Below, one piece after another: positions 11,634-62,753 of a stretch of DNA of 64,000 nt (position 1 is the stretch's first letter; each line of letters starts with the position of its first letter). The stretch lies in the IMG/VR virus record IMGVR_UViG_3300027974_000023, positions 32,001 through 96,000 of that record. The stretch is one strand, 5' to 3'. The notes beneath the pieces were generated by a model, which had not been told where the DNA came from, ran no database searches, and saw only the letters and a program-made list of their open reading frames with translations. Both the position numbers and the translations under genes were made by a program. The DNA comes from a virus.

Positions 11634-14600
11634 TATCTTTGAGATATTTCATTTTTACTATCACTAATTTTCAAAATGATATTAGTGTTACCTGATATTT
11701 TTTTCTTTAAGTTAATAAAACTCATGTAATGTCTGAATTTTTTTCTTTCTAATTCTGGTTTTGTATAGTCAAGATTATTTGAATTAAGTACTCTTCTGAA
11801 TCCATCAGGTTCTGTAACCCATGTGCTTTCATTTGAATAGTTACCAATCAAAGTTGTAGTTCCTGGTATATACTGACCTTGTCCAGCAGGATAAGGAGAA
11901 CCAATTGGGAACTCACCTCTATTATTAGTTATATCCCAAAACTGATTAAATCTATATTTGTTTTCTTCTTTTGTAAATAAAATATCAAATGAAGTTCCTG
12001 TAGCTGGATTTAATCTTGGAAATTGTCTTGTAAGAGGTAGGTCATTCTTAGGATATATATTAAGATTTAAGTAACCAGATACTTGCTCTGAATTATATAT
12101 CACAGCACTATCAAAGTTATAATCTAATACATGATAAGAGTCAACACAGTTATCAGTTTTTCTGTATGCTTCCATGATATATTCAATGGATCTTGTAGTA
12201 GTAACTGTCTGACCTGTTGTGATTGGAATATCAATTTCACATGCATAATCAACACCATAGTAATTACAGTAGTTATCACAAATCCAGTTATGTCTCCATC
12301 CACCAGTACCTTTTGTAGATATGAATACATCTTTTGTAGGCAATAATAGATCAGGATGCCAGTCATGGAAACTAATCCAGAACTGATTCTTAGGGTCATA
12401 ACTTACAGTCCATGAGGCATCTCTAAATAAAATAGGATCACCTAATTTAAACTTAGCTGATATGTTACCATTAATCATAAAGTAATCACCTGTATTATCT
12501 CCTTTAAGCGGTACATAGGTTACTTGTCCTTTATACTCATCTTTAAGTTGATAATCCTTTTTACAGAAATATAAAATAGTATTTGTATTATCAAATACAG
12601 ATTGACATCCAATACCTGCTACAGGATTATCTTGATAAGGATATAATGGGAAATCTTGTAAAAGCTTGTAAGGTAAGAACAGGGTGAACCACCATTTCAT
12701 ACCTTGCTGAGAAATTTCTTGTAATCCGTCTCCAATTGAGAATATCTTACCTGCCGCTTGAGACATATAGTATATACCTACTGGTGTAGATATAACGGAT
12801 AGTCTATTTTGAGATGCTCCATACTCATATGGTTTATCAGCATTAGTTAATTGTTGAGGTGGTTGACTAAATAAACCTCCATCACCTAATGTAACTTTAG
12901 TACCTAAATCAGTTTGAAGAGTATCTACACCCTGATACATTATAGGACTATCATTTTTAAATGTAATTACAATACCAGATTTGTTTATTGCTTTAACTCC
13001 ACTTACTTTAGATTTAAAAGTTTTATAGTTGTTTACTAAATAAATAAACCAACTATCTTTTACCATCTCATCTTGTTGTGGCAATGAATAAATAATTCTG
13101 TTTGGGTAATAAGTATAACATAAGTCAGCTACATTTGGATTGTAATATCTACTTTGTATAGTACTTAATGAAAAGTATTGATTATATAACTTAGATACAC
13201 TTAATGAATAGTCATATTGATTATAACTATTTACACCAAGTATAGTTGGGTTAGTATCAAACATTGAATTATAATCTGTGAAATTATACGGGTTATAATA
13301 TTTTCTTGCTATTTCTTCTGGTTGTGTTCTAAAATCTACAAGAACTTCAGATTCTACAAAGAAGTCTTTTATAGAAGAAACAGCTAAATAAAATGCTGAT
13401 TGTTTACAAACAAATAATCCAGGATAATTTGATGCTACATCATTAGAATAATTATATTTTTGACCATCGTCTACATAGTAATCAAGATTGTAAAAATCAG
13501 AAGGTGTAACACCTTCTCCAGGAGGAGCTGTTATACTACTACCAGAAAGAATAGTAACAATGTTTTTAAAATCTACAGCCCCTGCTAAATCTTGAATATC
13601 ATATTTTCTACTATTCAATCTGAATCTTGGATTAGGAATCATACTTCTTAAATAATAGTTATATTCAAAACCATCAGGTTGATCATATAACCAATCATAA
13701 AAAAAACACATGCTGTCTTTTTCAGTATATCTATTAATATATGTATCACCTCCAAACATTAAAGGAGATCTGTAAATTGTATTCTTAGTTTTGTTTACAC
13801 CATTACAAACTACAGTTGATGGATTAACTATAGTATTAGCAATCTTTTGCTCACATGTACCAACCGGTAATTGTTTAATAGAATCTAATTGACCATACTG
13901 GTTTCTCACTCTACCTCTTATAGCACCATAGTGACTTTGAATAGGTAATGAAAAAGTACGATCAAGATGTGTAAAATCTGGTTTGACTGTACCTGTAGGT
14001 AAGTAATTATTAAAATCAGATGCTTGTAACAAAGTACCTAATGTTGTTAATGACTTATCACCAGATAATAACTTAGGACCTATATTTTGATTATTACCAG
14101 CTTTTGTTCTTACAACTACTTTAGGTGATCTTTTTATATTATTAAGACTATAAGATCTCCACGCACCTGTGTTATCTTGATATCTAGAAACAGTTTGTAT
14201 ATTATCTCTTAAATAAAAACCATCTTCCATTTTAAATCTTGTGATATCTGTATTTAAGTTTTTATCCATATTTGAATAAAAACCGTATGCTTTTTGCTGT
14301 AATGCAAATTGTTTATATCCTACTACAGCATAAATCAAATCTAATGTTACTCTTGCTCCTTCAGAAAAGTAAAAAGCAATTTTTGCAAGATTATTAAGAA
14401 CAGCAAGAGCTGTTGGTAAATATTGTGAAGGTGCAAATTCTGTATTTAATTGTGAACCTGTGTACACACCACCATCGGCCGATAGTCCAAGTGCTGCATT
14501 GGTACTGTATATAGTTTCTAAACCACCACCACCAGCCATTGCATCTGCAATTATTACACCACCTACTCCATAAATTGTTTTTGATTTTGTAAAGTCAGCA

Positions 14601-17122
14601 AGTATATTAGCAAATATACCAGGCTCAGATGCTTGTTTAGGTTTAGTTGTTATTTTACCACTTTCAGCACCCGGAAGTGAGTAATTAACATTAACATTAT
14701 AAGAAGTAGCTGTACCAGCACCATTTATACTTTCTTGTCCTGATGCACCGCCCGTAATTGCCTCACCTGTCATATCAGGTATCTGAATATCTTGATAAGC
14801 AGGCCCTGGAGACACAGAACTTCTTTTACCTACCATTGATATTATAGCTTCAGCTAAACCACCAAATATCATTGGTACTATAACTGCATCTGATAATAGT
14901 TTGAATTTAGGATGATCAGATGGAGTATTAAAATTTTGCTGACTATATCCTGATAACGGACCATATGTTTTAAATTCTGTTGTAGATAAAAATGGTGTTG
15001 TCATCATAGTATCCGGTGAATGGAAACTAAAAATATCACTAGGTACAGTTTGATTATATAATGAATTTATACCAGCTTTAATAAATGGATCATTATATCC
15101 AGCTACATTTGTACCCAGTGTATTACTCAAAGGTTCAATTGTATTAAATGGATAATTTGCATATAAACCAGTAGCACTAAGATTACCTGTTCCAGGAATT
15201 TCATATGTTCTAAAGTTATTTACCATACCTTTAGCAACAATGGTTTTGTTTCCTTCTCTTGATCCTCTTAGAATTTCATAACCTACAATACCAGCAATAT
15301 CATCACCATCATTATCTTTCGGTAATGCAATGTTTTCAAAGTAAACCCCCATCAATCTAATAAAGTAATCATTAGAGTTATTTTGAGGATTTGTATTTCT
15401 TCTAAAGTGTGTTACTGTATCTGCGGCACTTCCTGCAGTATAGTCTTCAGGAAATTTATGATGTCTGATATGCTTACCACATAAATCATAAGTAGTACTT
15501 GTCTCTCCTGTCCAACAATGAGCAGAAGTATTCCATATATCATCACGGTTATCTGGATACTTTTCAGTTGATTCCCAGTATCCCATGTCTCCTGTTGCAA
15601 TAACTTTTCCACCATCATCACTAAAAGTACCAACTACAGCAGATGCATTATCTATTGTAGCAGTATTATACACTTCAAATACTTTGTCATCTGAGTATAG
15701 TGTATTTTGGTTACCTACTAATAGAGCATCTTCTAGTAGAGATCCTCCATTAGGAACGTTAAAGCTTCTAGGAGGTCTTCCTGGAATATGATATGTAGAA
15801 GTTTTATCTCCAGTGTCATAAGCCCATCTAATGAAAAAAGAATATACTTCATCTCTCATGTAGTTAGTTTTATTACCACCTTTCATATAATACTCAGCAG
15901 GGTATTCTACAGAAGCCCACTTAGTTTTAATTAAGTTAGCTAAAGGTTGATAATTAAAATCAAACTTACTTCTTGGACCAACTCTTAATAAATAATTATT
16001 AACCTCTGCCATTTGATCAGAAGTTTCAAATACTGGAGTTTGTAAAGGTAATTGTTCAAGAGGTATAGTTATATTACCTCCATTATCAATTTGATCAATA
16101 CTTATAGTTGATGTATTAGTAGAGTATATACCCATTAACTGAGCCACAGTCTGTTGATTAACACACTTTACAATAACTAATTGAAACTCATCAAAGTTTT
16201 TATTATCTGCTGATACATTTAAAGTAAGAGATCCTTGAAGATCTTGTGGAGAATAAATAAATTGGTAGTTACTTTGAGCAAAGTAATCAGTTACTTTTTG
16301 ACCTTTTATTGTATAAGCAATAAGAGCAAAATAAGTTCCGTTTGCTAAAGTACCACCTTGTTGTCCTCTTGTTAAATTTAAACAAGGAGTGGTCATAAGT
16401 CTTGCTAGTCTTATATGCTCACAATCTAATTTGTTTGTATTTGTGCATGTAATACAACCTATTGGTGTATAACCAGTTTTTGGAACAATTACATCAGCTT
16501 CATCTTTACATTTTTTTATCCACTGTACATTTGGCCAAAGCATTTTAGTTCCTCCAGGTCCTTGGTAGTAATTTGCATTTGTTCCAATTGAAGTTACGTA
16601 AAAATATTCAGGACCAGGCCATGTTTGAGGATCTCCAATATTTAAGTATCTATCAGGGTTTAAACCATCTGACCAATATACTTGCCAAGTACAATCCTCT
16701 TTTAATCTTGATACACCAGATATTAAATATCTTTTATCAAAAGCTAAACATACATCAATAACAATTGGTTTGTAACTACAATTTTCTTCTTCAAACAAAC
16801 CAATTTCAGATGATACTGGTTGACCATTTGTATTATGACCAGCTGTAAAAATTAACCATTTATCTGAAAAAAGATATATAGCGCCTATTACTAATTTTTC
16901 AGTAGCGTTAACAGGCATAAAATTACCTGCATTAAAACATAAGTAATTAGCTGATTCATTAGATATAGAACCTACTTTACCTGTCTTAGAGTTATTAACC
17001 ATGTTGACAGCATGGGTCCACATTCCTTCTGTTACATATGATGGATCAGAATCTTTATTTAGACCCTTTATGAAACTATCATTTATAACTTGAGAGCTAT
17101 TTTGCATATTGTTATCAGCCAT
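11633..17122 (-). CDS. Tail muzzle/stabilization protein (crAss-like, P22 gp10-related)
   Basis: 1829 aa. N-terminal F.KGLNKD motif, RDEVYSF, GGDTYI, WISFHDW.P segments. Beta-rich, follows the ring proteins. Confidence 0.8.
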   Translation of the reverse strand: MADNNMQNSSQVINDSFIKGLNKDSDPSYVTEGMWTHAVNMVNNSKTGKVGSISNESANYLCFNAGNFMPVNATEKLVIGAIYLFSDKWLIFTAGHNTNGQPVSSEIGLFEEENCSYKPIVIDVCLAFDKRYLISGVSRLKEDCTWQVYWSDGLNPDRYLNIGDPQTWPGPEYFYVTSIGTNANYYQGPGGTKMLWPNVQWIKKCKDEADVIVPKTGYTPIGCITCTNTNKLDCEHIRLARLMTTPCLNLTRGQQGGTLANGTYFALIAYTIKGQKVTDYFAQSNYQFIYSPQDLQGSLTLNVSADNKNFDEFQLVIVKCVNQQTVAQLMGIYSTNTSTISIDQIDNGGNITIPLEQLPLQTPVFETSDQMAEVNNYLLRVGPRSKFDFNYQPLANLIKTKWASVEYPAEYYMKGGNKTNYMRDEVYSFFIRWAYDTGDKTSTYHIPGRPPRSFNVPNGGSLLEDALLVGNQNTLYSDDKVFEVYNTATIDNASAVVGTFSDDGGKVIATGDMGYWESTEKYPDNRDDIWNTSAHCWTGETSTTYDLCGKHIRHHKFPEDYTAGSAADTVTHFRRNTNPQNNSNDYFIRLMGVYFENIALPKDNDGDDIAGIVGYEILRGSREGNKTIVAKGMVNNFRTYEIPGTGNLSATGLYANYPFNTIEPLSNTLGTNVAGYNDPFIKAGINSLYNQTVPSDIFSFHSPDTMMTTPFLSTTEFKTYGPLSGYSQQNFNTPSDHPKFKLLSDAVIVPMIFGGLAEAIISMVGKRSSVSPGPAYQDIQIPDMTGEAITGGASGQESINGAGTATSYNVNVNYSLPGAESGKITTKPKQASEPGIFANILADFTKSKTIYGVGGVIIADAMAGGGGLETIYSTNAALGLSADGGVYTGSQLNTEFAPSQYLPTALAVLNNLAKIAFYFSEGARVTLDLIYAVVGYKQFALQQKAYGFYSNMDKNLNTDITRFKMEDGFYLRDNIQTVSRYQDNTGAWRSYSLNNIKRSPKVVVRTKAGNNQNIGPKLLSGDKSLTTLGTLLQASDFNNYLPTGTVKPDFTHLDRTFSLPIQSHYGAIRGRVRNQYGQLDSIKQLPVGTCEQKIANTIVNPSTVVCNGVNKTKNTIYRSPLMFGGDTYINRYTEKDSMCFFYDWLYDQPDGFEYNYYLRSMIPNPRFRLNSRKYDIQDLAGAVDFKNIVTILSGSSITAPPGEGVTPSDFYNLDYYVDDGQKYNYSNDVASNYPGLFVCKQSAFYLAVSSIKDFFVESEVLVDFRTQPEEIARKYYNPYNFTDYNSMFDTNPTILGVNSYNQYDYSLSVSKLYNQYFSLSTIQSRYYNPNVADLCYTYYPNRIIYSLPQQDEMVKDSWFIYLVNNYKTFKSKVSGVKAINKSGIVITFKNDSPIMYQGVDTLQTDLGTKVTLGDGGLFSQPPQQLTNADKPYEYGASQNRLSVISTPVGIYYMSQAAGKIFSIGDGLQEISQQGMKWWFTLFLPYKLLQDFPLYPYQDNPVAGIGCQSVFDNTNTILYFCKKDYQLKDEYKGQVTYVPLKGDNTGDYFMINGNISAKFKLGDPILFRDASWTVSYDPKNQFWISFHDWHPDLLLPTKDVFISTKGTGGWRHNWICDNYCNYYGVDYACEIDIPITTGQTVTTTRSIEYIMEAYRKTDNCVDSYHVLDYNFDSAVIYNSEQVSGYLNLNIYPKNDLPLTRQFPRLNPATGTSFDILFTKEENKYRFNQFWDITNNRGEFPIGSPYPAGQGQYIPGTTTLIGNYSNESTWVTEPDGFRRVLNSNNLDYTKPELERKKFRHYMSFINLKKKISGNTNIILKISDSKNEISQR

Positions 17123-17124
17123 AA

Positions 17125-18183
17125 TTATATAACTTTAGTATTATAATTTAATCTTGTATAGTTACCAACTGTTGGAGCCTTGAACATATCATAGTATTTA
17201 GAATACTGTGCTCTTCTGTTAGTCCACCATAGTTGCTCCATCTCTTTAAAGTTTGGAGTATTAACTAAACTTAATGCATTCACTCTAGATTCTTTTAACT
17301 CAGGTAGGATGACCTGCAGTCTTTGAGCTACATCCTCACCATTTAAATATAAATTCTCAAGAATTCTTTTCTTGAAAGCATACTCATAGTAATCATTAAG
17401 TCTTGGATGATCAGGAACCATTAAGTTTCCATTCTCATCTTGTAATTCTCCTTGGTAGTTTACATACACATGACCATCTTGGAAAGTAGTAAAAAGAAAT
17501 CCATCTTTAAGCCATCCTTCATCTGGACCATTATGATATAAATTTGGACAATCACCATCAATGTTCTGACTAGCTTTCATTCTTAACTGAGTCATCACAG
17601 TATATTTTCTTGTAAGTCCTGGATGTACTACTTGTATTAGCTCATAAGATTCTCCTTTACAATTCATAAATACTCTTGGAGCAATACATGTATCACCATA
17701 AGGATTATTAGGATCATATTCTGTCGGAATAGAATTTGTAACTGGAGTATTTAATTCACAACCTGCTGTATGATTACATGGATTTGAATTACATGTTCTA
17801 CAGTTTACTGTTTCTGGTGTGCATAAATCTATACCTCCTGGGAATTCTTTGTATTTTGCAGGAGCAGGAAATGGTCTTTCTTGTATATTAGTACCACCCA
17901 TTCTACCATCATAACCAACATGCTCGGTTCTTTCATGACAAGACATACCATAATTCCACACATAGAAGTCATCTGGAAGCTTAACTCTTCCATGACAGAT
18001 ATCTAGTACAACTTCTTTAGTTTGATTGATTCTAAGGCCTAAATCATAATTAATCTTTCTAGCAAGTTTGATTAATTGTTGAGGCTCTATCATGTTTTCT
18101 AAAGCAAAACTTGATAAGTCAATTTGAACATCTTCCATCAATTGGTCAAATGTTCGGAAGCGGAGTGTGTAATTAAAATCCAT
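17125..18183 (-). CDS. Tail ring/tubular protein (R1-like) with Cys-rich insertion
   Basis: VKLPDDF and DENGNLMVPD motifs of crAss-like ring proteins. Adjacent to the muzzle gene. Confidence 0.65.
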   Translation of the reverse strand: MDFNYTLRFRTFDQLMEDVQIDLSSFALENMIEPQQLIKLARKINYDLGLRINQTKEVVLDICHGRVKLPDDFYVWNYGMSCHERTEHVGYDGRMGGTNIQERPFPAPAKYKEFPGGIDLCTPETVNCRTCNSNPCNHTAGCELNTPVTNSIPTEYDPNNPYGDTCIAPRVFMNCKGESYELIQVVHPGLTRKYTVMTQLRMKASQNIDGDCPNLYHNGPDEGWLKDGFLFTTFQDGHVYVNYQGELQDENGNLMVPDHPRLNDYYEYAFKKRILENLYLNGEDVAQRLQVILPELKESRVNALSLVNTPNFKEMEQLWWTNRRAQYSKYYDMFKAPTVGNYTRLNYNTKVI

Positions 18184-18854
18184 TATCTTAAGATATTTTG
18201 ACCATCATCAGAACCATCTGTTGGAATCTGTGCAGCCATGGTTAATTCTTTAACAACATATTGTTCTATTTCAGAAAATAAATATTCTGGAAATGGTAAT
18301 GCATTATCTTGTCTAAGTTTACATTGATCTTCTTTAGAACATAAGTAAGCACTTTTATCAGCATCAAATATTGCTTCAACTCTGATAGCATCCCAATCAA
18401 TATTAGGACAATATAAGTAACCTTCTGAAAACCAGAAGTATCTTCTTTTATTATATTTAAAAGTAGTTGATTTTGTAATAGATACCCATGTACCTGGTTG
18501 AGTTCTGTACATAATATCTGTACCATCAATAGAAGACACAGTACGGATAATAGGACCCATTATACCAGATAGTATTCCAGGGATTTTTTCTTTACTTCTC
18601 TTAAAGTAACATCCTGAATATACACCAGTACAGCCAGCCTCTATCTTATCTACATCAATAAGTTCTACATATGGTAATACAGTGAATATAGAACTTATTT
18701 TCATAAGTCTATACTGGTTGTCCTCTCTCTTTAAGAGAGTCTGCCCATACTTCAGTAAAGAATAATATATAGTTCTGTCAGTTAAGAAAGGATCCTCCTT
18801 AACAGCTTTTAATGTATTTCTTACTCTTGATATAGCTTCTCCAATTGTTGTCAT
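18183..18854 (-). CDS. Tail ring protein (R2-like)
   Basis: Size, synteny and C-terminal D...N motif of head-tail ring proteins. Confidence 0.55.
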   Translation of the reverse strand: MTTIGEAISRVRNTLKAVKEDPFLTDRTIYYSLLKYGQTLLKREDNQYRLMKISSIFTVLPYVELIDVDKIEAGCTGVYSGCYFKRSKEKIPGILSGIMGPIIRTVSSIDGTDIMYRTQPGTWVSITKSTTFKYNKRRYFWFSEGYLYCPNIDWDAIRVEAIFDADKSAYLCSKEDQCKLRQDNALPFPEYLFSEIEQYVVKELTMAAQIPTDGSDDGQNILR

Positions 18855-19432
18855 AGGTCAAATTCATTATATGTTTTTAAAGCTTCAGACTGCTCTTTAG
18901 TTTTTCTATCTTTATATACTTCTTTATTATAAGTAAGCTTAACTTGTCTTCCATTTTCAACTACAACATATATGTTCCAGTTCTCAGGATATGTTTTTGC
19001 TACACTTCTTTTAAAATCTCTACAAGCAACAAAAGTCCAAAACTCTCTATTCTTTATCTTATGTTTTGGTGCAAAATTGCTATAGAATATCTTTGCTAAT
19101 TTTCCATCAGTGGCAAAGTTGTTATTGGAAACTTGCACACCATATGTTTTGGATTTATTAAAGTCAACATTATATTTCTTACTTTGCTGACAGGTTCCAA
19201 TAAAAAGCCATCCTATTTGTTCCGGTAACTGAACACCATCTCTGGTATCTATTACTGTATTATATACATATTGATTAAATGTTTTAGCTATTTTCTTTAA
19301 AGCTGCATTTGTCAACTTAGCATATTTAGGATGCTTCTTTCTAAAATTATCAAAGAACTTTTCATTTAAAACATTGTAAACTTCTGGTCTAAATCTTGGA
19401 GCTGTTAAATCTGGTTTCTTAAATTCCTTCAT
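18851..19432 (-). CDS. IHF/HU-like protein of crAss-like phages
   Basis: Start re-assigned to MKEFKKP (19432) because the upstream extension crosses a terminator. GVQLPEQIGWLFI resembles the HU/IHF beta-arm. Confidence 0.5.
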   Translation of the reverse strand: MKEFKKPDLTAPRFRPEVYNVLNEKFFDNFRKKHPKYAKLTNAALKKIAKTFNQYVYNTVIDTRDGVQLPEQIGWLFIGTCQQSKKYNVDFNKSKTYGVQVSNNNFATDGKLAKIFYSNFAPKHKIKNREFWTFVACRDFKRSVAKTYPENWNIYVVVENGRQVKLTYNKEVYKDRKTKEQSEALKTYNEFDL

Positions 19433-19461
19433 AATAATATAGTAAAAATATGTGATATTAG

Positions 19462-19469
19462 CAAATATA
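19462..19469 (-). promoter_or_regulatory. Bacteroidetes sigma-A -7 element (TATATTTG)
   Basis: Matches TAnnTTTG, 30 nt upstream of ATG 19432. Confidence 0.55.
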
Positions 19470-19474
19470 GCTAT

Positions 19475-19504
19475 AAAACAAAACCCCCGCAAGTGCAGGG
19501 GTCT
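19475..19504 (-). terminator. Intrinsic terminator
   Basis: GACCCCTGC-ACTT-GCGGGGGTT hairpin followed by a U-rich tract on the minus strand. Confidence 0.8.
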
Positions 19505-19542
19505 GTCCGTAGTTGTAGAATAAACCAACAAACTTCAACTAA
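19475..19542 (-). ncRNA. Candidate 3'UTR-derived small RNA (stem-loop with UUUGUUGGUUU loop plus terminator)
   Basis: Stem 19510-19518/19533-19541. The loop is antisense to the AAACCAACAAA leaders of other genes (see findings). Confidence 0.4.
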
Positions 19543-19552
19543 CTAATTATAT

Positions 19553-21382
19553 TTAATCTTTAACAAGTCTGACAGAGTGACCCCAGTTTTTTCCATAGGA
19601 GCCTCTAAATAAATTAGGATTTGTATTATCTAAATCATAACTTCCTGCATCAAGAGTATCAACTTCTGTAGAAGTCCACCAACGAGTAACTTTCCCAATA
19701 TTTGAAAAATTTCCACCATTTACACGGTAACCTGCTGGAAGTGCTGTAAATCCTGATTCATTTGTGGCAGCGGTATTGGGAGCAATCCAATAACTTAAAC
19801 CTATTTCTTTCATCTTACCTCCTGCTACTGAATCGCCACCTAAATAAGTTGATAATGTAGCAACTTCACCATCGGTAGGAATATGATAACCTACTGGTGA
19901 AAGACCTCTAGGATCGTTTACAGCATACCAGTTATATAATTTACCATATAAAGGTTCAGTTAAAGGATCATTATTATAGTAACACCAAGCACCTGTTGTT
20001 AATGATGCCCACGCAGTAGGATCAGTAACCTGAGGAATTACATCTCCGTTTCTGTATGTTGTTATACCTAAATTACATCTAGTCCATACTTGAGATCCAA
20101 TAGTAACATCATCAGCACATGTTGGATCTTTTACAGCTCTAACTGATAAACCAAATTTTTTAGAATTATTAGTGCTATAAGCTTCATTTGTATTATAATT
20201 CAAATTACCATACCATGCATTATTTACACTTTCTTCTGCAGTAGTCCACCAATAAGCAAGATAACCAGAATAAAGATAATCACCATTTTGTGTACGTTCT
20301 CCAGCCGGTAATGCTGTGAAAAAACTTGAATTAGTTGGAGGATCAATAGAAGCATATTGCCAATATGAAGCATTTATTTCTGTAACACAAGTTCTATCCA
20401 ATGAACCAATTTGTTTCAATGCTATTCCTGCAGTTGCATTTCCACCTACTGTATCAATTAAAGTTTGCCATTCATAACGTGTTGGTATATGATATCCTTC
20501 TGGAGTTAAACCTCTAGAATCATTAATTGCATACCAATTGTATAACTTACCAAATGCAGGTTCAGTATCTGGATTATTGTCATAGTAACACCAAGCACCC
20601 GTAGTCAAAGCAGCCCATTCAACCGGATCTTCCACATAAGGAATAGGATCACCATTCTTATATGTTGTTACACCTAAATTACATTGATTCCAAGTTTGAT
20701 CACCAATAACTACATCACCTGAACACATTGGAGGAATCTCAAAAGGTGTTAAAGGATGATCAGCTGTAGCAGTCATAAGTTTTTTAACAAGTTGCATTAG
20801 ATCCCCTAAAACAGTTCTATATTCTAAATAGTGATTATAATCAGGTGCTTGATAATCTGTAAAATCTACTGTATATGTATATATTATACCTGTTGATTGC
20901 GGTGAAGTTTCAATAAGTTGAGTAAAAGAATGAATACCTGTAAGTTTATTAGGATCAGTATTAAGTTTAAATGAGTTTCTAATTTGCATTTTCTTTGCTT
21001 GAAATGCAATATCTTTCATGTAAAACCCATCAGTTTGATTATAGAATAAATTACATAATTTATTGTATTCATCACGTGGAATACACCTTTCATTTAAAAC
21101 TTGTGGAATAATTATTTCTCCAGTTACAGGATCTTGATAATCAGCTTCTCTATAAAAAGCAATTGAAGCTGTAAAATATTCTATAACTGCTTTTGCCCAT
21201 ACATCATGTGTTGCATTAGCAGTTGTAAACATATCACCATTTCCTGTCATATCTGGAGCTGCTGTATTTTCAGTACAAGTGTTTCCTACAGCACCATAAT
21301 AATAACAATAATCATCTAAATCAAAAGAACAAACTCTTGGTCTTTGATTATTCCAAATTTCTATATTCTTAATAAATCCCAT
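19553..21382 (-). CDS. Fibre/receptor-binding protein with two FISUMP (Fibrobacter succinogenes major paralogous) domains
   Basis: Two copies of IG.Q.W...NL....Y.NGD.IP...GAWCYY...GKLYNWYA...GYHIPT...G.SVR.VKD. Confidence 0.85.
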   Translation of the reverse strand: MGFIKNIEIWNNQRPRVCSFDLDDYCYYYGAVGNTCTENTAAPDMTGNGDMFTTANATHDVWAKAVIEYFTASIAFYREADYQDPVTGEIIIPQVLNERCIPRDEYNKLCNLFYNQTDGFYMKDIAFQAKKMQIRNSFKLNTDPNKLTGIHSFTQLIETSPQSTGIIYTYTVDFTDYQAPDYNHYLEYRTVLGDLMQLVKKLMTATADHPLTPFEIPPMCSGDVVIGDQTWNQCNLGVTTYKNGDPIPYVEDPVEWAALTTGAWCYYDNNPDTEPAFGKLYNWYAINDSRGLTPEGYHIPTRYEWQTLIDTVGGNATAGIALKQIGSLDRTCVTEINASYWQYASIDPPTNSSFFTALPAGERTQNGDYLYSGYLAYWWTTAEESVNNAWYGNLNYNTNEAYSTNNSKKFGLSVRAVKDPTCADDVTIGSQVWTRCNLGITTYRNGDVIPQVTDPTAWASLTTGAWCYYNNDPLTEPLYGKLYNWYAVNDPRGLSPVGYHIPTDGEVATLSTYLGGDSVAGGKMKEIGLSYWIAPNTAATNESGFTALPAGYRVNGGNFSNIGKVTRWWTSTEVDTLDAGSYDLDNTNPNLFRGSYGKNWGHSVRLVKD

Positions 21383-21383
21383 C

Positions 21384-22736
21384 TTAAACTGTAAATTTTA
21401 ATTCATATTTGTATCTGTGAAATAGTGCATAATCATTAGCCCATACAAAAGGTGTATTTGCTAAAATAAATTCATCAAGTGCTTTGTACCATGCATCTCT
21501 TCTTGCTCTAGTATCAACATTTAAGTCACTTATTATACCACCTAATGTTGCACTCCACATATTTGTGACTGGATCCCATGCATATTCACTAAAGTATGTT
21601 GGATCTAACGGGTCAGTTGCCCATTTTACTAATTGACCAGGTTGTCCAGTAGGGGGTGTATTACCAAAAGGTACTGCAAGAATCCAATAAAACTTAGCTC
21701 CTGTATTTACATTAATAGTAGGAAATCTTTGTGCTAATGTTTGATTATTCAATTGAGGCCAAGGAATTTCTGACCAAATTCTAAATGAACATTCCGGACA
21801 TCCCCATAAAACATTATAATTTTGTAAACCACCTTTGTATAGCACTAATTGATCACCTATATTACCTTGTTGCCATTGTGTGTAATTTAGAGCTTCATCA
21901 GGTACAGGAGTACCTACATACTCATTCATTAAGTTTTCATTTGTGTTTTTAAGAAACTCATCTCTATTTCTTCTATAATTTGAAGCAGCACCTTCATAAC
22001 CCGGTTCAAAACATTCCATACAACACATGTTTTTTATTTCAGTACATGTTGGCATATATAATGGATCATCCATAAAGTCTAGTGGTGTATTGGCAAATTT
22101 AGTTTTTTTACCATTATTTTTAAAATTTCTTCCTCCTAAAAATGCTTGTCTTGGTTGAGGTGTATCAACTATCATTGAATAACAATCTGATGCATATACA
22201 AAATGAACTACTTCTTTACATCCATTTGCATCTATAACTGTTAATTGAACATTGGTTACTTTTATATTTTTATCTATATTACCTGTCATAATAGAGTTAG
22301 CGGCAATACATGTTAATGTTAAAGTAGGTAATGTTGTAGAACCAGAAATGAAATGACCAACAAATTCTCCTTGAGCAATGTCCCATTGATAAGTATACGG
22401 TGCTAGTCCATTTGTAATTTCTGTTGATAAAGATGGACCATCTACTTCTTCATCATTTGTAATTATATTTACATTTAATTCACATTTTTTGCATATTAAA
22501 TCTAACACACTTTGTAATGCATTTTCTAAACTTTCAGAATTATCTACTACGCTAAATGTAGTACCGCAGTACATAATATCTCCAGCAGTATATTGTATAC
22601 ATGCTGTGTCAAGTATCTCAGAACAAATATAATCTTCTGGACAAGTTCCAGGATCAGGACATATTGTATATGATTTAGGTGTATAGTTTAAAACTACTTT
22701 TTTATTACTACCACCACAGTTTCTACAAATTGGCAT
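21384..22736 (-). CDS. Cys-rich putative tail fibre/adaptor with SprB/PKD-like Ig repeat
   Basis: DTACIQYT N-terminal module. G.APYTYQW...LTVIDANGC Ig-like repeat. Confidence 0.5.
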   Translation of the reverse strand: MPICRNCGGSNKKVVLNYTPKSYTICPDPGTCPEDYICSEILDTACIQYTAGDIMYCGTTFSVVDNSESLENALQSVLDLICKKCELNVNIITNDEEVDGPSLSTEITNGLAPYTYQWDIAQGEFVGHFISGSTTLPTLTLTCIAANSIMTGNIDKNIKVTNVQLTVIDANGCKEVVHFVYASDCYSMIVDTPQPRQAFLGGRNFKNNGKKTKFANTPLDFMDDPLYMPTCTEIKNMCCMECFEPGYEGAASNYRRNRDEFLKNTNENLMNEYVGTPVPDEALNYTQWQQGNIGDQLVLYKGGLQNYNVLWGCPECSFRIWSEIPWPQLNNQTLAQRFPTINVNTGAKFYWILAVPFGNTPPTGQPGQLVKWATDPLDPTYFSEYAWDPVTNMWSATLGGIISDLNVDTRARRDAWYKALDEFILANTPFVWANDYALFHRYKYELKFTV

Positions 22737-22738
22737 AG

Positions 22739-23290
22739 TTAATCTAAATTAGTAAGTGTATAATATATTGTTTTCTTAATACCATTAGCATCAGTAACAT
22801 CTAATCTTATATGTGACATATACACAGCTCCCGTAGCACCACTGATACCACCTACTTGTAAAGAGTTACCAGGTATAGGAAGTAAAGTAACACTTGAAAA
22901 AGTATATTCATTATTTTGTATTTCATGGCAAACAAAGGCACCTTGTGATATTGACCATAAATATTGATATGGGCCTTGACCACCTGATACTGTTGCAGAT
23001 AAACCGTAACCCTGATTATTAATTATAATATTTATACCATCTCCTTTTAAAGAACAAACTTCATCAACAAGGTTTTGTAATATATCTTGTAAATTTGTAT
23101 TAGTAGCAACAACAGTAGTGTTACCACATTTAAGATCTAGTCCTGTATATATAACACATGAGGAATCAAATGTGTCTTCACATTTTTGAGGTGAAGGACA
23201 TATAGCAGGATCTGAGCATGGTGCTACCGGTAAGAAAGTATCCTTGCATCCGCAATCTTGGCATCCACAATCTTTACATTTATTTTCCAT
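22739..23290 (-). CDS. Cys-rich putative fibre adaptor, paralogue of the 21384 N-terminus
   Basis: DSSCVIYTG module and GG.GPYQYLW...VTDANG repeat. Confidence 0.5.
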   Translation of the reverse strand: MENKCKDCGCQDCGCKDTFLPVAPCSDPAICPSPQKCEDTFDSSCVIYTGLDLKCGNTTVVATNTNLQDILQNLVDEVCSLKGDGINIIINNQGYGLSATVSGGQGPYQYLWSISQGAFVCHEIQNNEYTFSSVTLLPIPGNSLQVGGISGATGAVYMSHIRLDVTDANGIKKTIYYTLTNLD

Positions 23291-23322
23291 TATGTTTAAT
23301 TATTTATATTATACAATTTCAT

Positions 23323-24963
23323 CTAATCTTTTATAAGTCTTACAGAAAATCCAGCTGTTTTAAGATAGGGGCTTCTGTTTATCTGACCACTGTAACTGTA
23401 AATGAAGTGGCTCCAAGCACTGACCGTATTTAAACTGTAATTTGTAGAAGTCCACCACATACCGACTTCATTCATGTTACTATTAAAATTTCCAGTATCA
23501 AAACGGAGTGAACCCCCAAGAGCAGTAAAACACACGCTATTTATTGCACCTGTATTAGGAGAATTCCAATGTGTATTTCCAATCTCTTTCAATTCGCCCC
23601 CTGCAACAGTTGTTCCACCTACATAATTTATTAAAACCGTCCATTCATCATCTGTCGCTACGTGATAACCAGTAGGGGCTAATCCGCGAGGATCATTAAC
23701 AGCATACCAGTTATATAATTTTCCATATACGGCATTATTTGCAGGATCATTATCGTAGTAACACCATGCACCAGTAGTTAAAGCAGCCCACGCAGTAGGA
23801 TCCGTCACTTCAGGTATGGGGTCTCCATTTCTGTAAGTTGTAACATCTAAGTTTTTACAAGTCCAAGTTTGTGTTCCAATAACAACTTCTCCAGTAATAC
23901 AAGCACAAGGATCTGGTGTACCGCCACAAGGATAACTAAGATCAAGTGTACATTGTGGTGCTCCATAACATTCTGTAAACGTATAACCGCTTGGACAGGA
24001 ATAGGTTATTCCTGTACTACCTGCCTGAGGTAATCTAATTGGAGGATCTACAATTAAATCTTTTGTTTTGAACATTATATAAGGCTCAAGATCATCAACA
24101 GTTGCTGTACTTGAAGCCATTAAATTTTGTAAATCTAAAACAGGTATATCATAAACTTCAGCAGCAAACCCGTATAAATCAAAAAAGTTATAACCAGATA
24201 ATTCAAAAACATGATCCCCTACAGGTAGATTTATAGGAAACATATGCCAATAATTAAAAGGTCCTGTATTTGATGGATCTGGAGGAGTTCCTGAAGAACT
24301 AGGTGAAGCCCAAAGATTAACTAAATTTAAACTTGTTACACCTCCCTGAAATGTTGTTGATGTTATACCAGCCTTTACTTGATTATCTCCAGCTAATGCA
24401 AAAATATAAGTTTTATCTTGTGTAATTGTAATACAAAATCTAAGAGTAAACCATGTATTAAATGGATAATCAGTTCCCCATAGTGAATTATAATTCAATC
24501 TACCTCCTGTAGTTGTACCATTTGAATTAAATATTTGGTTACCAGCTACAGATAATGTAGGCGAATATGTTAGACCAGTACCTGCAGCATCTTTAACTAT
24601 ATATGTAGGACTACTGTAGCCATTGATTGGAAACGTAGCTCCTGTAATATTTGGATATAGTGCTCCACCAAGATTTCCATATACAACGGCTTTATTACCT
24701 ACAATAATAGGATAAAATGTACCACCACTTGCTGTAGCAGGAATTCTTTCTACTTTTTCACATATATTAGTTAATGTGTTTAATGTATAACCTTCTGCAC
24801 AGCTACAGCATACAATTTCACACCATTCAGTACCTGTCCAATATTTTGTTACACAATTTGCAGGATCAAGTAATTGCCAATTATCATTTGCATTTCTTAT
24901 ATGAACATTGCAATCACATATATCTACCCAATTAGAACCATTAAATACTTTATATTTTCCCAT
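23323..24963 (-). CDS. Fibre protein with C-terminal FISUMP domain
   Basis: C-terminal IGTQTWTCKNL...GKLYNWYAV...GFSVRLIKD. Central beta-rich domain flanked by C.EGY/CPSGY linkers. Confidence 0.8.
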   Translation of the reverse strand: MGKYKVFNGSNWVDICDCNVHIRNANDNWQLLDPANCVTKYWTGTEWCEIVCCSCAEGYTLNTLTNICEKVERIPATASGGTFYPIIVGNKAVVYGNLGGALYPNITGATFPINGYSSPTYIVKDAAGTGLTYSPTLSVAGNQIFNSNGTTTGGRLNYNSLWGTDYPFNTWFTLRFCITITQDKTYIFALAGDNQVKAGITSTTFQGGVTSLNLVNLWASPSSSGTPPDPSNTGPFNYWHMFPINLPVGDHVFELSGYNFFDLYGFAAEVYDIPVLDLQNLMASSTATVDDLEPYIMFKTKDLIVDPPIRLPQAGSTGITYSCPSGYTFTECYGAPQCTLDLSYPCGGTPDPCACITGEVVIGTQTWTCKNLDVTTYRNGDPIPEVTDPTAWAALTTGAWCYYDNDPANNAVYGKLYNWYAVNDPRGLAPTGYHVATDDEWTVLINYVGGTTVAGGELKEIGNTHWNSPNTGAINSVCFTALGGSLRFDTGNFNSNMNEVGMWWTSTNYSLNTVSAWSHFIYSYSGQINRSPYLKTAGFSVRLIKD

Positions 24964-24976
24964 TTTTAGTTATTTA

Positions 24977-26086: not shown

Positions 26087-26117
26087 ATCTTTACTTCTTA
26101 GTTTAATATACAAAATA

Positions 26118-27692: not shown

Positions 27693-27702
27693 AGTTTAAT
27701 AT

Positions 27703-27897
27703 TTATTTATTAGCTGTAAATCTATCTGATCCCCAGATATTTTTATTTGTAGTGTTTGTTGCAGAACTAACAGGTTTATTATTTCTTAAACCTTTTTCAT
27801 AAAGACTTAAACAATTTGCACAACATGATTTTCCATCACTTGCTGTTTTCTTTTGACATCCACAAGATAGTCTTGCATTACAATTATTACAATTCAT
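27703..27897 (-). CDS. Small Cys-rich (zinc-binding-like) protein
   Basis: CNNC...CGC...CCANC. Well spaced in the operon. Confidence 0.6.
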   Translation of the reverse strand: MNCNNCNARLSCGCQKKTASDGKSCCANCLSLYEKGLRNNKPVSSATNTTNKNIWGSDRFTANK

Positions 27898-27915
27898 TTT
27901 GGTTGGTTTTTAAGG

Positions 27916-28485: not shown

Positions 28486-28500
28486 AGCTTTATTAAAATA

Positions 28501-28539
28501 AAAAAAGGAGAGAAGAGTTTGAAACTCTCACTCTCCTTT
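28501..28539 (-). terminator. Intrinsic terminator
   Basis: AAAGGAGAG...CTCTCCTTT hairpin with poly-U on the minus strand, after the 528-aa gene. Confidence 0.85.
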
Positions 28540-28560
28540 AAAGTTATTAAATTTTTGTTA

Positions 28561-30147: not shown

Positions 30148-30213
30148 TTTGTTTTTGTTTTAGTTAATAAATAAATACTATATAATATAGTAAAAGTTTT
30201 TATAATATCAAAA

Positions 30214-30672: not shown

Positions 30673-30677
30673 TATTT

Positions 30678-31376: not shown

Positions 31377-31379
31377 ATC

Positions 31380-31775: not shown

Positions 31776-31777
31776 AA

Positions 31778-31936: not shown

Positions 31937-31938
31937 GA

Positions 31939-35941: not shown

Positions 35942-35974
35942 TGTTTTGTTGGTTTTTGGTTTGTGTAAATTTAA

Positions 35975-36823: not shown

Positions 36824-36841
36824 GTTTTTATAATTAAAACA

Positions 36842-36872
36842 CAAATATAAAAAGAATATTTGAGAAATCCAA
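36842..36872 (-). promoter_or_regulatory. Bacteroidetes sigma-A promoter (TTG-N20-TATATTTG) of the LAGLIDADG gene
   Basis: Matches the TAnnTTTG -7 element with a TTG about 20 nt upstream. Confidence 0.6.
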
Positions 36873-39799: not shown

Positions 39800-39905
39800 C
39801 TTTGTTGGTTTTGGTTTATAATTTAATATACTAATTAAACTTGATAAATTTAAAGCAGCTTATAAAATTTTTCACACTATATAGCTAAGTATTATTCTTT
39901 TCTTC

Positions 39906-49013: not shown

Positions 49014-49319
49014 TTATTTAAGTTTATCTAGTTTGTCTTCATCTTCTTCTGATACTACAGCTTTCCATCTTAGATCCGGACAATCTGATGAAAGAGATCT
49101 TACTTTAAATTTTAATGAGCACCCACATAATTGACAACATGGTTGTGTTCCTGTTAAAGCACAAGAATCACCTTTATCATCTTTTCTTACACATGCATTA
49201 CAATGCTGCATTCTAGCTGCAGCTATCTCCTCAACAAATCTATCTCTAATAATGGAATTCTTAATACCCTCCATTATTTGTGTTCTATTTTTCCAAATTT
49301 CTTTAATTGTTGGTTTCAT
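49014..49319 (-). CDS. Zinc-finger-like protein
   Basis: C..C, C..CGC, CP...W pattern. Confidence 0.6.
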   Translation of the reverse strand: MKPTIKEIWKNRTQIMEGIKNSIIRDRFVEEIAAARMQHCNACVRKDDKGDSCALTGTQPCCQLCGCSLKFKVRSLSSDCPDLRWKAVVSEEDEDKLDKLK

Positions 49320-50035: not shown

Positions 50036-50326
50036 TTAAGATTTTTTAAGTTTTCTAGCTGAAGTATCTTCTTGTTCAAAAGCTCTTTCTTCTTCCTCTT
50101 CTTCTTCACTTTTCTCTTTTGGTGATGTATTCTCAATAAACTGTGCCCACTGATAGTTTAAAGTAGATCTTTTGAATCTTGCTTCATCAATCTCAGTTAG
50201 AAGCTTTTCATACTTTGCTTGCGCTTCTAAGTAAGGAATTGATTCCTCATAGAACTTTTTCATTTCTTCTTTTCTTGCAGTTAACTCTTCTTGAGTTAAT
50301 TCTTGCTCTTCTAGTTGGTTTGACAT
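50036..50326 (-). CDS. Small acidic coiled-coil protein
   Basis: ORF track. First gene after the promoter at 50350. Confidence 0.6.
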   Translation of the reverse strand: MSNQLEEQELTQEELTARKEEMKKFYEESIPYLEAQAKYEKLLTEIDEARFKRSTLNYQWAQFIENTSPKEKSEEEEEEERAFEQEDTSARKLKKS

Positions 50327-62705: not shown

Positions 62706-62753
62706 TGTTAATCTTGTTTGTTGGTTGTACAAATATATGAATTATTTTAAATA

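What the first reader, a model, noticed from the sequence alone, without database searches (positions are those of the whole stretch)
19475..19542. Candidate phage small RNA whose loop is antisense to a leader motif shared by several genes
Seen: between the 19553 stop and the terminator, the minus-strand RNA folds into a 9-bp stem (one mismatch) exposing UUUGUUGGUUU. Its exact complement AAACCAACAAA lies 1 nt before the scaffold ATG (39801-39811) and 3 nt before the ATG of 34925-35941 (35945-35955). An 11-nt match lies in the leader of 62478-62705 (62716-62726), a one-mismatch copy before 27897, and an 8-nt match in the first codons of 50326. Here the motif is in the opposite orientation to all those leaders. 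Inference: a trans-acting seed RNA that co-represses translation of a regulon, in a phylum that largely lacks Shine-Dalgarno sequences.
Basis: partly seen in the sequence, partly recalled or inferred. Interest (0 to 1): 0.8.

Follow-up and report, generated by a model that had tools for sequence, protein, structure and literature searches.

The report
Conserved phage hairpin mirroring leader boxes
A small RNA hairpin kept at the end of the tail-fibre operon of a large group of uncultured crAss-like phages has an unchanging loop that is the mirror image of a short A/C-rich box placed just before the start codons of several virion genes, so it is a good but untested candidate for a phage RNA that controls translation by base pairing.

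Summary
The window is part of a 128.8-kb crAss-like phage. The hairpin (19510-19541, minus strand) plus intrinsic terminator lies in the 3' UTR of a fibre gene. A hairpin with the same loop core (GUUGGUU) occurs in 51 of 51 related loci and in 23 of 25 whole phage records examined, down to 28% capsid identity. Its stem covaries (7 of 7 pairs) with many G-U pairs, so it is an RNA of the sense strand. The complementary box AAACCAAC(A) sits 2-3 nt before the ATG of conserved virion genes. It is the most leader-enriched A/C word of 56 tested. Best reading (0.55): the 3'-UTR hairpin pairs with these leaders and masks an SD-less ribosome-loading region, much as GcvB does.

Weaknesses:
- No transcript ends were seen.
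- Loop and boxes do not covary in my sample.
- One cultured relative (Lbo-JY46) keeps the loop without boxes.
- U-rich loops match A-rich leaders easily.

No Rfam family or paper describes it. This scan had already noted the same element on other phage genomes.

The parts
19510..19541 (-). Conserved RNA hairpin. 5' arm 19533-19541, loop 19519-19532 (UUUGUUGGUUUAUU; the core GUUGGUU is invariant in relatives), 3' arm 19510-19518.
   Evidence: fold. (51 of 51 related loci). (7 of 7 stem pairs with changes on both sides, 97.8% paired, 0 of 500 shuffles). (45 G-U cells of 273; 81.3% paired if read on the other strand).
19472..19504 (-). Intrinsic terminator: GC-rich stem, 4-nt loop, U-tract. It ends the transcription unit that starts near 34.7 kb.
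   Evidence: Terminator helix covaries: 6 of 8 pairs in helix 2 with changes on both sides, 98.4% paired.
19462..19469 (-). TATATTTG, which fits TAnnTTTG (the Bacteroidota -7 promoter element; consensus recalled from my own knowledge). It is conserved just 3' of the terminator and is the promoter candidate for the next gene.
   Evidence: TATATTTG or TACATTTG in the relatives listed.
19553..21382 (-). Upstream gene: 609-aa fibre-like protein with a Fib_succ_major (FISUMP) domain. The hairpin lies in its 3' UTR.
   Evidence: PF09603, E 6.2e-74. In relatives the upstream gene differs.
18851..19432 (-). Downstream 193-aa gene of no known family. It was used as the anchor to fetch related loci.
   Evidence: (no family).
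39801..39811 (-). Leader box AAACCAACAAA, 1 nt before the ATG of the 422-aa gene that lies upstream of the major capsid gene.
   Evidence: (AACCAACA in 78 of 80 homologous loci; 2-3 nt from the ATG in 73 of the 76 where a spacer could be read).
35945..35963 (-). Leader of the 338-aa virion-module gene: AAACCAA followed by AAACCAACAAA, 3 nt before the ATG.
   Evidence: (tandem boxes at the orthologues in G001, G003, G005). (AAACCAA in 78 of 80 loci of a second clade).
27899..27909 (-). Box AAACCAACCAA, 1 nt before the ATG of a 64-aa Cys-rich gene.
   Evidence: Orthologues in G001, G005, G006, G009 carry AACCAACA 2-3 nt before the ATG.
62716..62727 (-). Box CAACCAACAAAC in the leader of 62478-62705, directly after a TATATTTG promoter-like element.
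49306..49316 (-). Box AAACCAACAAT inside codons 2-5 of the 101-aa gene 49014-49319.
   Evidence: The orthologues in G001, G003, G005 carry it within the first codons.
50314..50321 (-). 8-nt partial box AAACCAAC in codons 2-5 of 50036-50326.
   Evidence: duplex -9.9 kcal/mol; weak.

Best explanation
The hairpin is made as the 3' end of the sense-strand mRNA of the tail-fibre transcription unit, roughly 34.7 kb to 19.5 kb, which ends at the terminator right behind it. It may be trimmed to a ~70-nt RNA. Its exposed U/G-rich loop (UUUGUUGGUUU, invariant core GUUGGUU) base-pairs in trans with the A/C-rich box AAACCAAC(A). That box occupies about -4 to -14 before the AUG, where a Shine-Dalgarno would otherwise be, on a small set of phage mRNAs: the 422-aa gene before the capsid gene, the 338-aa gene after it, a small Cys-rich protein, and a few others.

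Pairing covers the ribosome-loading or enhancer region and lowers translation of these messages once the tail operon is transcribed.

Shown: the structure, the strand, conservation of loop and boxes, their complementarity, and the position of the boxes.

Inferred: that the RNA accumulates, that it pairs, and that the effect is repression.
For: (1) Conservation. A hairpin with loop core TTGTTGGTT lies upstream of all 51 of 51 homologous loci, 38 of them distinct. It is also in 23 of 25 whole records looked at. These include Leptolyngbya phage Lbo-JY46, whose capsid protein is only 28% identical. There is one strong covariance-model hit per genome in 5 of 5 genomes (48.6-90.7 bits; next best 24 bits).

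(2) It is RNA of the sense strand. 7 of 7 stem pairs have changes on both sides. 97.8% of cells are paired, against 39.7-52.3% for the whole structure with partners slid by 1 to 3 columns, and 0 of 500 shuffles reach this. 45 of 273 stem cells are G-U, so only 81.3% would pair on the other strand. Nine loop columns are invariant while the arms change.

(3) The boxes.
- AACCAACA is in 78 of 80 leaders of the 422-aa gene, 2-3 nt from the ATG in 73 of 76, and 16 of 80 carry a second copy.
- AAACCAA is in 78 of 80 leaders of the 338-aa gene of a second clade, with two or more AACCAA in 66 of 80.
- 30 of 79 AACCAACA copies in six genomes lie within 30 nt of a start codon on the sense strand, a zone that is 3.4% of the sequence.
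- AACCAAC ends at -7..0 in 31 of 49 cases in nine genomes.

(4) Match between the two. Among all 56 A/C 7-mers with 2-3 C, the two most enriched in leaders over 13 genomes are AAACCAA (78 seen, 5.8 expected) and AACCAAC (37 seen, 2.8 expected). Both are loop complements, and 4 of the top 7 are.

(5) In this genome the best duplexes of the loop with 145 start regions are the 338-aa and 422-aa genes (-13.1 kcal/mol), the 101-aa gene (-12.3) and the 75-aa gene (-11.5). Three regions reach -12 or lower, and 0 of 200 shuffled loops reach three.

(6) Shine-Dalgarno-like words are in only 3 of 145 leaders, so the box sits where ribosome loading must be specified otherwise.
Against: - No transcript boundary, abundance or processing was seen. 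The one RNA library found is held as contigs only.
- No covariation between loop and boxes. In the second clade the 338-aa leader is mostly AAACCAAAC repeats (70 of 80 lack AACCAACA). Yet the loops stay UUUUGUUGGUUU (G006-G008, G010, G017, G018) or UUUAGUUGGUUUU (G009, G015), with no matching change in the boxes.
- Lbo-JY46 keeps the loop (UUUGUUGGUUG). Its start regions are not enriched for AACCAAC (1 of 20), AAACCAA (2 of 57) or CAACAAA (4 of 59).
- A plain count of start regions with 8 or more complementary bases is not above shuffled loops: 37 against a mean of 30.4, and 22% of shuffles reach it (in this test the G006 11-mer was taken from a neighbouring site, not the hairpin loop). Any U-rich loop matches A-rich leaders.
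- The best single duplex energy is reached by 8.5% of shuffled loops.
- Given the loop's letters (8 U, 3 G), a chance match to the 7-8-nt box has a probability of about 2-3% by my own count of arrangements, which is not negligible.
- An 11-bp helix cannot form inside a closed 11-14-nt loop without opening the weak stem.
Confidence: 0.55

Rival explanations
1. The hairpin is a protein-recognised or structural 3'-end element, for example an mRNA-stabilising, processing or termination-factor site at the boundary of two late operons. Its invariant loop is read by a conserved phage or host protein. The complementarity to the leader boxes would be coincidental or secondary.
For: - The loop is conserved far beyond the boxes: Lbo-JY46 has it without box enrichment.
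- There is no loop-box covariation.
- The shuffled-loop control is not significant.
- The element always sits directly before a strong terminator and a conserved promoter.
Against: - It does not explain why the top two leader-enriched A/C words of 56 are exactly the loop's complements.
- It does not explain why boxes are duplicated next to the ATG.
- It does not explain why hairpin and box enrichment co-occur in 12 of the 13 whole genomes tested, and again in G019.
- No candidate protein was identified.
Confidence: 0.25
2. The loop does pair with the boxes, but the effect is positive, or it acts on other partners. Options: the hairpin RNA stabilises or recruits the boxed mRNAs for translation, acting like an anti-Shine-Dalgarno supplied in trans. 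Or it also targets host mRNAs with C/A-rich leaders for host shut-off.
For: The evidence for complementarity and position is the same as for the main reading. The boxed genes are virion genes that must be made in quantity. The box sits where an SD would sit, in a phage with almost no SD.
Against: There is no precedent that I know of for a trans RNA acting as ribosome adaptor. The leaders look unstructured, so there is nothing to unmask. No ribosomal protein S21 gene is in the genome. The host is unknown, so host targets could not be examined.
Confidence: 0.1
3. The 11-mer is a double-stranded DNA site, for a transcription factor or a promoter element, that works in either orientation. The hairpin would be incidental.
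For: Boxes lie 10-15 nt downstream of a conserved promoter-like block at the 422-aa gene. One site is in opposite orientation.
Against: - The arms flanking the hairpin copy covary and use G-U pairs, which only makes sense for a single strand of the sense polarity.
- Box position is fixed relative to the ATG, not to one promoter type. The upstream contexts of the 422-aa, 338-aa and 64-aa genes differ.
- Boxes also occur inside the first codons.
Confidence: 0.04
4. Chance: a U-rich loop next to a terminator in an AT-rich genome whose leaders are A-rich.
For: (shuffled loops do as well by a simple count). (the hairpin alone folds no better than 20 of 200 shuffles).
Against: Conservation of the loop in 51 of 51 loci and 23 of 25 records with a covarying stem. 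The conserved box at orthologous genes. The ranking.
Confidence: 0.02

Closest known systems
GcvB sRNA of enterobacteria silencing C/A-rich (ACA) translation-enhancing elements. PMC3879156: I read the abstract and outline only. The wider G/U-rich-seed picture is from my own knowledge.
   Same: A G/U-rich single-stranded seed pairs with A/C-rich sequences just upstream of the start region of many mRNAs. The target sequence is itself a feature that promotes translation, so pairing silences an enhancer. There are several targets per seed.
   Different: GcvB is a free-standing, Hfq-dependent chromosomal gene. Its seed is linear, not a hairpin loop, and its targets also have SD sequences. Here the element is phage-borne, sits in a 3' UTR, the context lacks SD, and no chaperone is known. 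There is no sequence or Rfam relationship.
c4 antisense RNA of phages P1/P7
   Same: A phage-encoded small RNA whose exposed loop sequences pair in trans with the leader of phage genes and block their ribosome-binding region.
   Different: c4 is processed from the 5' part of its own target operon and controls one operon (icd/ant) for immunity of a temperate phage. Here a lytic-type crAss-like phage has one loop and several dispersed virion-gene leaders. No Rfam family, C4 included, reaches its gathering score anywhere in the window.
3'-UTR-derived base-pairing sRNAs of bacteria (CpxQ, SroC, DapZ, MicL type; from my own knowledge, no paper read here)
   Same: The seed-bearing element lies between a stop codon and the mRNA's own intrinsic terminator, has no promoter of its own, and would share the 3' end of the parent mRNA.
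   Different: Those are released by RNase E and act with Hfq in Proteobacteria. Processing is unknown here. In Lbo-JY46 the element follows a separate upstream terminator and a ~200-nt spacer, so there it may be an independent gene.
Trans-acting sRNAs of Bacteroides such as GibS
   Same: Hfq-less Bacteroidota context, with seeds pairing at start regions of mRNAs that lack SD.
   Different: Those are host-encoded and unrelated in sequence. The host of this phage is not established.

Membership tests
Trans-acting base-pairing small RNA (seed + terminator) | A discrete, stable transcript with defined ends | not testable with these tools
   Only one RNA library holds related sequence, and only as contigs without ends or strand.
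Trans-acting base-pairing small RNA (seed + terminator) | Conserved single-stranded seed presented by a conserved structure, followed by an intrinsic terminator | tested here: met
   Nine loop columns are invariant. The stem covaries in 7 of 7 pairs. A terminator follows. Present in 51 of 51 loci.
Trans-acting base-pairing small RNA (seed + terminator) | Complementary target sites concentrated at translation start regions of several mRNAs | tested here: met
   Caveat: the simple 8-mer count against shuffled loops is not significant.
Trans-acting base-pairing small RNA (seed + terminator) | Seed and target change together across relatives | tested here: not met
   The loop stays the same while the 338-aa leader shifts from AACCAACA to AAACCAAAC. 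The loop variant UUUAGUUGG (G009, G015) has no matching box change. Other boxed genes in the same genomes keep AACCAAC, which could hold the loop fixed.
3'-UTR-derived sRNA | Lies between the stop codon and the terminator of a protein gene, with no promoter of its own | tested here: met
   The stop at 19553 is followed 11 nt later by the hairpin. In relatives, different upstream genes end directly at the conserved element. Exception: Lbo-JY46.
3'-UTR-derived sRNA | Released from the parent mRNA by endonucleolytic processing | not testable with these tools
   Needs 5'-end mapping.
Any Rfam family (including phage C4 antisense RNA) | Covariance-model match at the family's gathering score | tested here: not met
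   0 matches in the whole window at gathering thresholds. The best sub-threshold match on 19380-19640 is 27.3 bits against a cut-off of 55 (rnk leader), a generic hairpin-plus-terminator likeness.
Intrinsic (rho-independent) terminator | GC-rich stem-loop followed by a U-tract at the end of a gene | tested here: met
   19472-19504 only. The first hairpin is AU-rich, lacks a U-tract directly behind it, and is not needed for this.

The most novel reading that the evidence does not exclude
The A/C box is a phage-private replacement for the Shine-Dalgarno sequence, and the hairpin is the RNA that reads it. A phage-made RNA would gate or recruit ribosomes onto a chosen set of phage, and perhaps host, messages. 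This would couple transcription of the tail operon to translation of head genes in a host lineage whose ribosomes do not use SD pairing. It would be a translation-selection system built from a trans RNA rather than from rRNA.
Probability: 0.07. Interest if true: 0.95.

Novelty: new variant of a known kind. Interest (0 to 1): 0.72.

Why it matters
crAss-like phages are among the most abundant viruses known, yet I found no regulatory RNA described for them. My searches of the held literature found nothing on this element, and Rfam has no family for it.

A single ~70-nt element conserved across phages whose capsid proteins have drifted to 28% identity, paired with a conserved box at the start of orthologous virion genes, would be a phage-wide post-transcriptional regulon. 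It would also show how translation starts are marked and controlled where Shine-Dalgarno pairing is not used.

The prediction is directly testable with compensatory mutations. One carrier of the hairpin, Leptolyngbya phage Lbo-JY46, is in culture.

Tried and rejected
- Phage GenBank collection. No DNA match for 18800-21400 and no tblastn match for the 422-aa protein. The capsid protein's best hit is Lbo-JY46 at 28%.
- Identity of the boxed genes. PHROGs and Pfam gave nothing for the 422-, 338-, 193-, 64-, 75- and 96-aa proteins. PDB sequence search gave nothing meaningful. The protein atlas gave only 'hypothetical protein' clusters and a weak 0.83 lead to scaffolding proteins for the 422-aa protein. 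So 'scaffold' stays a guess from gene position.
- Expression. One run, X1, an RNA library labelled marine metagenome, held 0.16 of the sampled words. Laid at 85% likeness, 264 contigs fit, 14 of them at 99% or more, and all 30 bins had some depth. Contigs cannot show ends, strand or level, and DNA carry-over is possible. This says nothing about a discrete small RNA.
- Loop-box covariation. I looked in 4 contigs holding both loci and in whole genomes G001-G009, G014, G015, G017, G018. No consistent compensatory change was found. The G001 pair (loop GGUUGUUGG, 423-aa leader AACCAACAAC) fits, but its other boxes do not.
- Count of start regions with 8 or more complementary bases against 1000 shuffled loops per genome: not significant. 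I rejected it as a test because poly-A matches dominate, and replaced it with the ranking of A/C words. In that script the 11-mer taken for G006 was a neighbouring site, not the hairpin loop.
- My crude hairpin finder missed most known cases and was dropped.
- The idea that the box pairs with 16S rRNA and the loop mimics it was considered from memory only. It was not tested because no host is known.
- A pseudoknot between the loop's UUGUUG and the AACAA that follows the stem in many relatives was considered. That AACAA is absent in L049, L052 and the window, and fits better as the A-tract of the terminator.
- Ribosomal protein S21 gene: none in the genome.
- Supplementary files of papers were not consulted.
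Full report
WHAT THE WINDOW IS. The window is bases 32001-96000 of a 128,825-bp virus record that CheckV rates complete. The gene at 36884-38503 (minus strand) matches the Crassvirus major capsid family (PF23898, E 8.6e-30) and a PHROG 'major head protein'. Nearly all genes of the window are on the minus strand. It is therefore the structural arm of a crAss-like phage. No close relative is in the GenBank phage collection. The nearest isolate by capsid protein is Leptolyngbya phage Lbo-JY46, at 28% identity over 99% of the protein.

THE OBSERVATION. Read on the minus strand, the fibre-like gene 19553-21382 carries a Fib_succ_major domain (E 6.2e-74) and ends in TAA. Eleven bases later comes a hairpin:
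- arms UAGUUGAAG and CUACAACUA (19533-19541 and 19510-19518), with one A-A mismatch;
- a 14-nt loop, UUUGUUGGUUUAUU.

A GC-rich intrinsic terminator follows at 19472-19504. After it comes TATATTTG, which fits the TAnnTTTG promoter element of Bacteroidota (consensus recalled from my own knowledge). The ATG of the next gene is at 19432.

The hairpin alone is unremarkable in energy: -6.3 kcal/mol, and 20 of 200 shuffles fold as well. The pair of hairpins is remarkable: z -3.89, 0 of 200.

The loop's exact complement, AAACCAACAAA, occurs only twice more in the whole genome. Both copies are in mRNA sense, 1 and 3 nt before the ATGs of 38531-39799 and 34925-35941. The reversed control word occurs 0 times. 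With up to one mismatch there are 14 sites against 4.85 expected, and 0 of 100 shuffles reach 14.

THE HAIRPIN IS CONSERVED AND IS AN RNA. Homologues of the 193-aa downstream gene brought in 51 loci at 42-93% protein identity.
- All 51 carry the nine loop bases TTGTTGGTT inside a hairpin, followed by a terminator. 50 do so within about 90-140 nt of the start codon, and one (L049) at 1.5 kb. There are 38 distinct sequences.
- The genes upstream of the element differ from locus to locus, and their stop codons abut it.
- The arms change while the loop does not. Examples are GUUACAG/CUGUGAC, GUUGCAG/CUGUAAC, AUCACG/CGUGAU, GUCACG/CGUGAC, UCAGAAU/AUUCUGA, and later GGAGG/CCUCC, AUAUAAA/UUUAUAU and CUAUGA/UCAUAG.

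I built a covariance model and realigned 39 distinct sequences to it. In the first helix:
- 7 of 7 pairs have changes on both sides;
- 97.8% of cells pair, while the whole structure pairs in 39.7-52.3% of cells when partners are slid by 1 to 3 columns;
- 0 of 500 shuffles reach the observed values.

45 of the 273 cells are G-U pairs, so on the opposite strand only 81.3% would pair. The structure therefore belongs to the sense-strand transcript and not to an antisense RNA or to duplex DNA.

The model finds one strong hit per genome in 5 of 5 whole relatives, at 48.6-90.7 bits, with the next best at 24 bits. Going outward, I found the hairpin in 23 of 25 whole records.
- The two without it, G016 and G022, are 77% and 89% complete.
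- In G010 and G019 the model scored poorly, and I found the element by eye or by pattern.
- The core GUUGGUU is the same in all 23. Loop variants are UUUUGUUGGUUU(U), GGUUGUUGGUUU, UUUGUUGGUUA/G/C and UUUAGUUGGUUUU.

THE BOXES ARE CONSERVED TOO.
- Upstream of 80 homologues of the 422-aa gene (69-99% identity, 66 distinct leaders), 78 have AACCAACA.
- The spacer to the ATG is 2-3 nt in 73 of the 76 cases where it could be read. 16 have a second copy, often in the first codons.
- The box follows a conserved promoter-like block, TTTAAATTTNTCAAGTTTA-N5-6-GTATATTA.
- In six whole genomes the box sits just before the ATG of the same orthologues: the 338-aa gene (often two tandem boxes), the ~420-aa gene and a 63-71-aa Cys-rich gene. 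It also sits inside the first codons of a 101-aa gene.
- 30 of 79 copies lie within 30 nt of a start codon on the sense strand, a zone that is 3.4% of the sequence.
- AACCAAC ends at -7 to 0 in 31 of 49 cases in nine genomes, with a peak at -4. That is where a Shine-Dalgarno would lie, and only 3 of 145 leaders of this genome have an SD-like word.
- A second clade, fetched with the 338-aa protein (69-75% identical to the G004 protein), has AAACCAA in 78 of 80 leaders and two or more AACCAA in 66 of 80, but AACCAACA in only 10 of 80.
- Over the 13 whole genomes tested, AAACCAA is enriched at start regions at p<0.05 in 12. G019, added later, shows it 14.4-fold (7 copies) and G022 10.9-fold (4 copies).

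HOW GOOD IS THE MATCH BETWEEN LOOP AND BOX? This is the crux, and the answer is: good, not overwhelming.
- For. I ranked all 56 seven-letter words made of A and C with two or three C by their enrichment in leaders (-20..-1) over 13 genomes. The top two are AAACCAA (78 seen, 5.8 expected) and AACCAAC (37 seen, 2.8 expected). Both are complements of the loop, and 4 of the top 7 are.
- For. In this genome the loop's best predicted duplexes among 145 start regions are exactly the boxed genes. Three regions reach -12 kcal/mol or lower, which 0 of 200 shuffled loops achieve.
- Against. The best single energy is reached by 8.5% of shuffled loops.
- Against. A plain count of start regions with 8 or more complementary bases is no higher than for shuffled loops: 37 against a mean of 30.4, and 22% of shuffles reach it. 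A U-rich loop always finds A-runs in these leaders.
- My own estimate. Given the loop's letters (8 U, 3 G; 165 arrangements), a chance match to a fixed 7-8-nt box has a probability of about 2-3%.

Added to the independent deep conservation of both partners and their co-occurrence, I take pairing as the most likely link. I hold it at 0.55, plus 0.10 for pairing with a positive or other effect.

WHAT SPEAKS AGAINST A SIMPLE sRNA-REGULON STORY.
1. Loop and boxes do not change together. Where the 338-aa leader has become AAACCAAAC repeats, the loop is still UUUUGUUGGUUU (G006-G008, G010, G017, G018). Where the loop has become UUUAGUUGGUUUU (G009, G015), the boxes are still AAAAACCAAC(A). A possible reason is that other boxed genes in those genomes keep AACCAAC, so that several targets hold the seed fixed. 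That is an excuse, not evidence. Two earlier notes of this scan report matching changes on other genomes, and I could not reproduce this on mine.
2. Lbo-JY46 keeps hairpin and loop (91578-91645, minus strand) in an unannotated 410-nt gap, behind a separate upstream terminator. Its start regions show no enrichment of any loop-complementary word. Its relatives G020 and G021 do have the box: 11 of 40 and 4 of 32 AAACCAA copies at starts. So the hairpin is older or more general than the regulon, or Lbo-JY46 lost the boxes.
3. No transcript data. The only RNA library with related sequence is held as contigs.

ANATOMY OF TRANSCRIPTION. A scan for terminators on the minus strand finds six intergenic ones, at 60136, 58453, 55364, 50388, 34717 and 19476.
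- The 422-aa gene, the capsid gene, a LAGLIDADG endonuclease gene and the 338-aa gene form the unit that ends at 34717.
- The hairpin closes the next unit, about 34.7 to 19.5 kb, which holds the fibre genes.
- The hairpin is therefore not on the same message as its two best targets, so the action would be in trans. The 64-aa boxed gene is on the same unit as the hairpin.
- There is no conserved promoter between the upstream stop codon and the hairpin. In this clade the element is a 3'-UTR part of the fibre mRNA that may or may not be cut free.

COMPARISON WITH KNOWN SYSTEMS.
- No Rfam family matches: 0 at gathering scores in the window, and the best sub-threshold match is 27.3 bits against a cut-off of 55.
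- In mechanism the closest is GcvB, whose pairing just upstream of the start region silences ACA-containing enhancer elements in several mRNAs (PMC3879156, abstract read).
- In biology the closest is the c4 antisense RNA of P1/P7 (own knowledge).
- In genomic position the closest are the 3'-UTR-derived sRNAs of enterobacteria (own knowledge).
- It is a member of none of these families by sequence. I file it as a new variant of the known kind 'trans-acting base-pairing RNA', with the defining feature 'a discrete transcript' untested and 'seed-target covariation' tested and not met.

PRIOR NOTES AND LITERATURE. Five full-text searches found no description of this element or of a regulatory RNA of crAss-like phages: plus for the motif itself, which returned only primer-like hits. 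A search for Lbo-JY46 found no paper. This scan has noted what is evidently the same hairpin-and-box pair on at least seven other phage genomes, with follow-up reports reaching much the same reading. Those are unchecked AI notes and not independent evidence. The GcvB comparison came to me from one of them, and I then checked the paper's abstract myself.

VERDICT. The element is a deeply conserved sense-strand RNA hairpin with an invariant loop, complementary to the most enriched leader box of the same phages. Trans pairing that masks an SD-less ribosome-loading site is the best explanation (0.55). A protein-recognised 3'-end element is the main rival (0.25). The direction of the effect is open.

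Noticed in passing
G003 (IMG/VR relative), about 119290-119330, minus strand (locus L140): In an intergenic region behind a promoter-like TATAAGTATAGTATTA, a leader-like RNA has the box AACCAACAAU paired in cis with AUUGUUGGU in a local hairpin. Box and anti-box are in one molecule.
   Followed up: no
window 39812-39870, minus strand, and loci L055-L134: A conserved promoter-like block, TTTAAATTTNTCAAGTTTA-N5-6-GTATATTA, lies 10-15 nt before the box of the 422-aa gene in nearly all 80 relatives. A similar ...TTTTTAGTATATTA lies directly before the ATG of the 193-aa gene, suggesting a near-leaderless message.
   Followed up: partly
PP438436.1 (Leptolyngbya phage Lbo-JY46) 91491-91900: A 410-nt unannotated gap holds an upstream terminator, a ~200-nt spacer, the conserved hairpin and its own terminator, so there it may be an independent small RNA gene. 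A TACCTTTG element (TAnnTTTG type, typical of Bacteroidota by my recollection) follows, although the recorded host is a cyanobacterium.
   Followed up: partly
G004 (IMG/VR relative, 134,893 bp): My crude ORF caller gives 207 ORFs (156 on the plus strand) against 117-145 in the five other genomes called with it. Possible causes are fragmented genes, many small genes or a different genetic code in part of the genome.
   Followed up: no
window 35975-36844, minus strand: A LAGLIDADG-type homing endonuclease gene (PF14528; PHROG endonuclease, E 1.9e-41) sits between the capsid gene and the boxed 338-aa gene.
   Followed up: no
genome coordinates 1044-2216 and 125171-126343 (outside the window): Two 390-aa genes near the two ends of the record have near-identical leaders and first codons, each followed by a similar GGGGGTGATTACATCCCC terminator. 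This is either a terminal duplication or paralogues.
   Followed up: no
window 12001-32000: An RNA library labelled marine metagenome holds contigs 99% or more alike to parts of this stretch (14 of the 264 contigs laid), so a close relative of the phage was present in that sample. It cannot be told whether as RNA or as carried-over DNA.
   Followed up: partly
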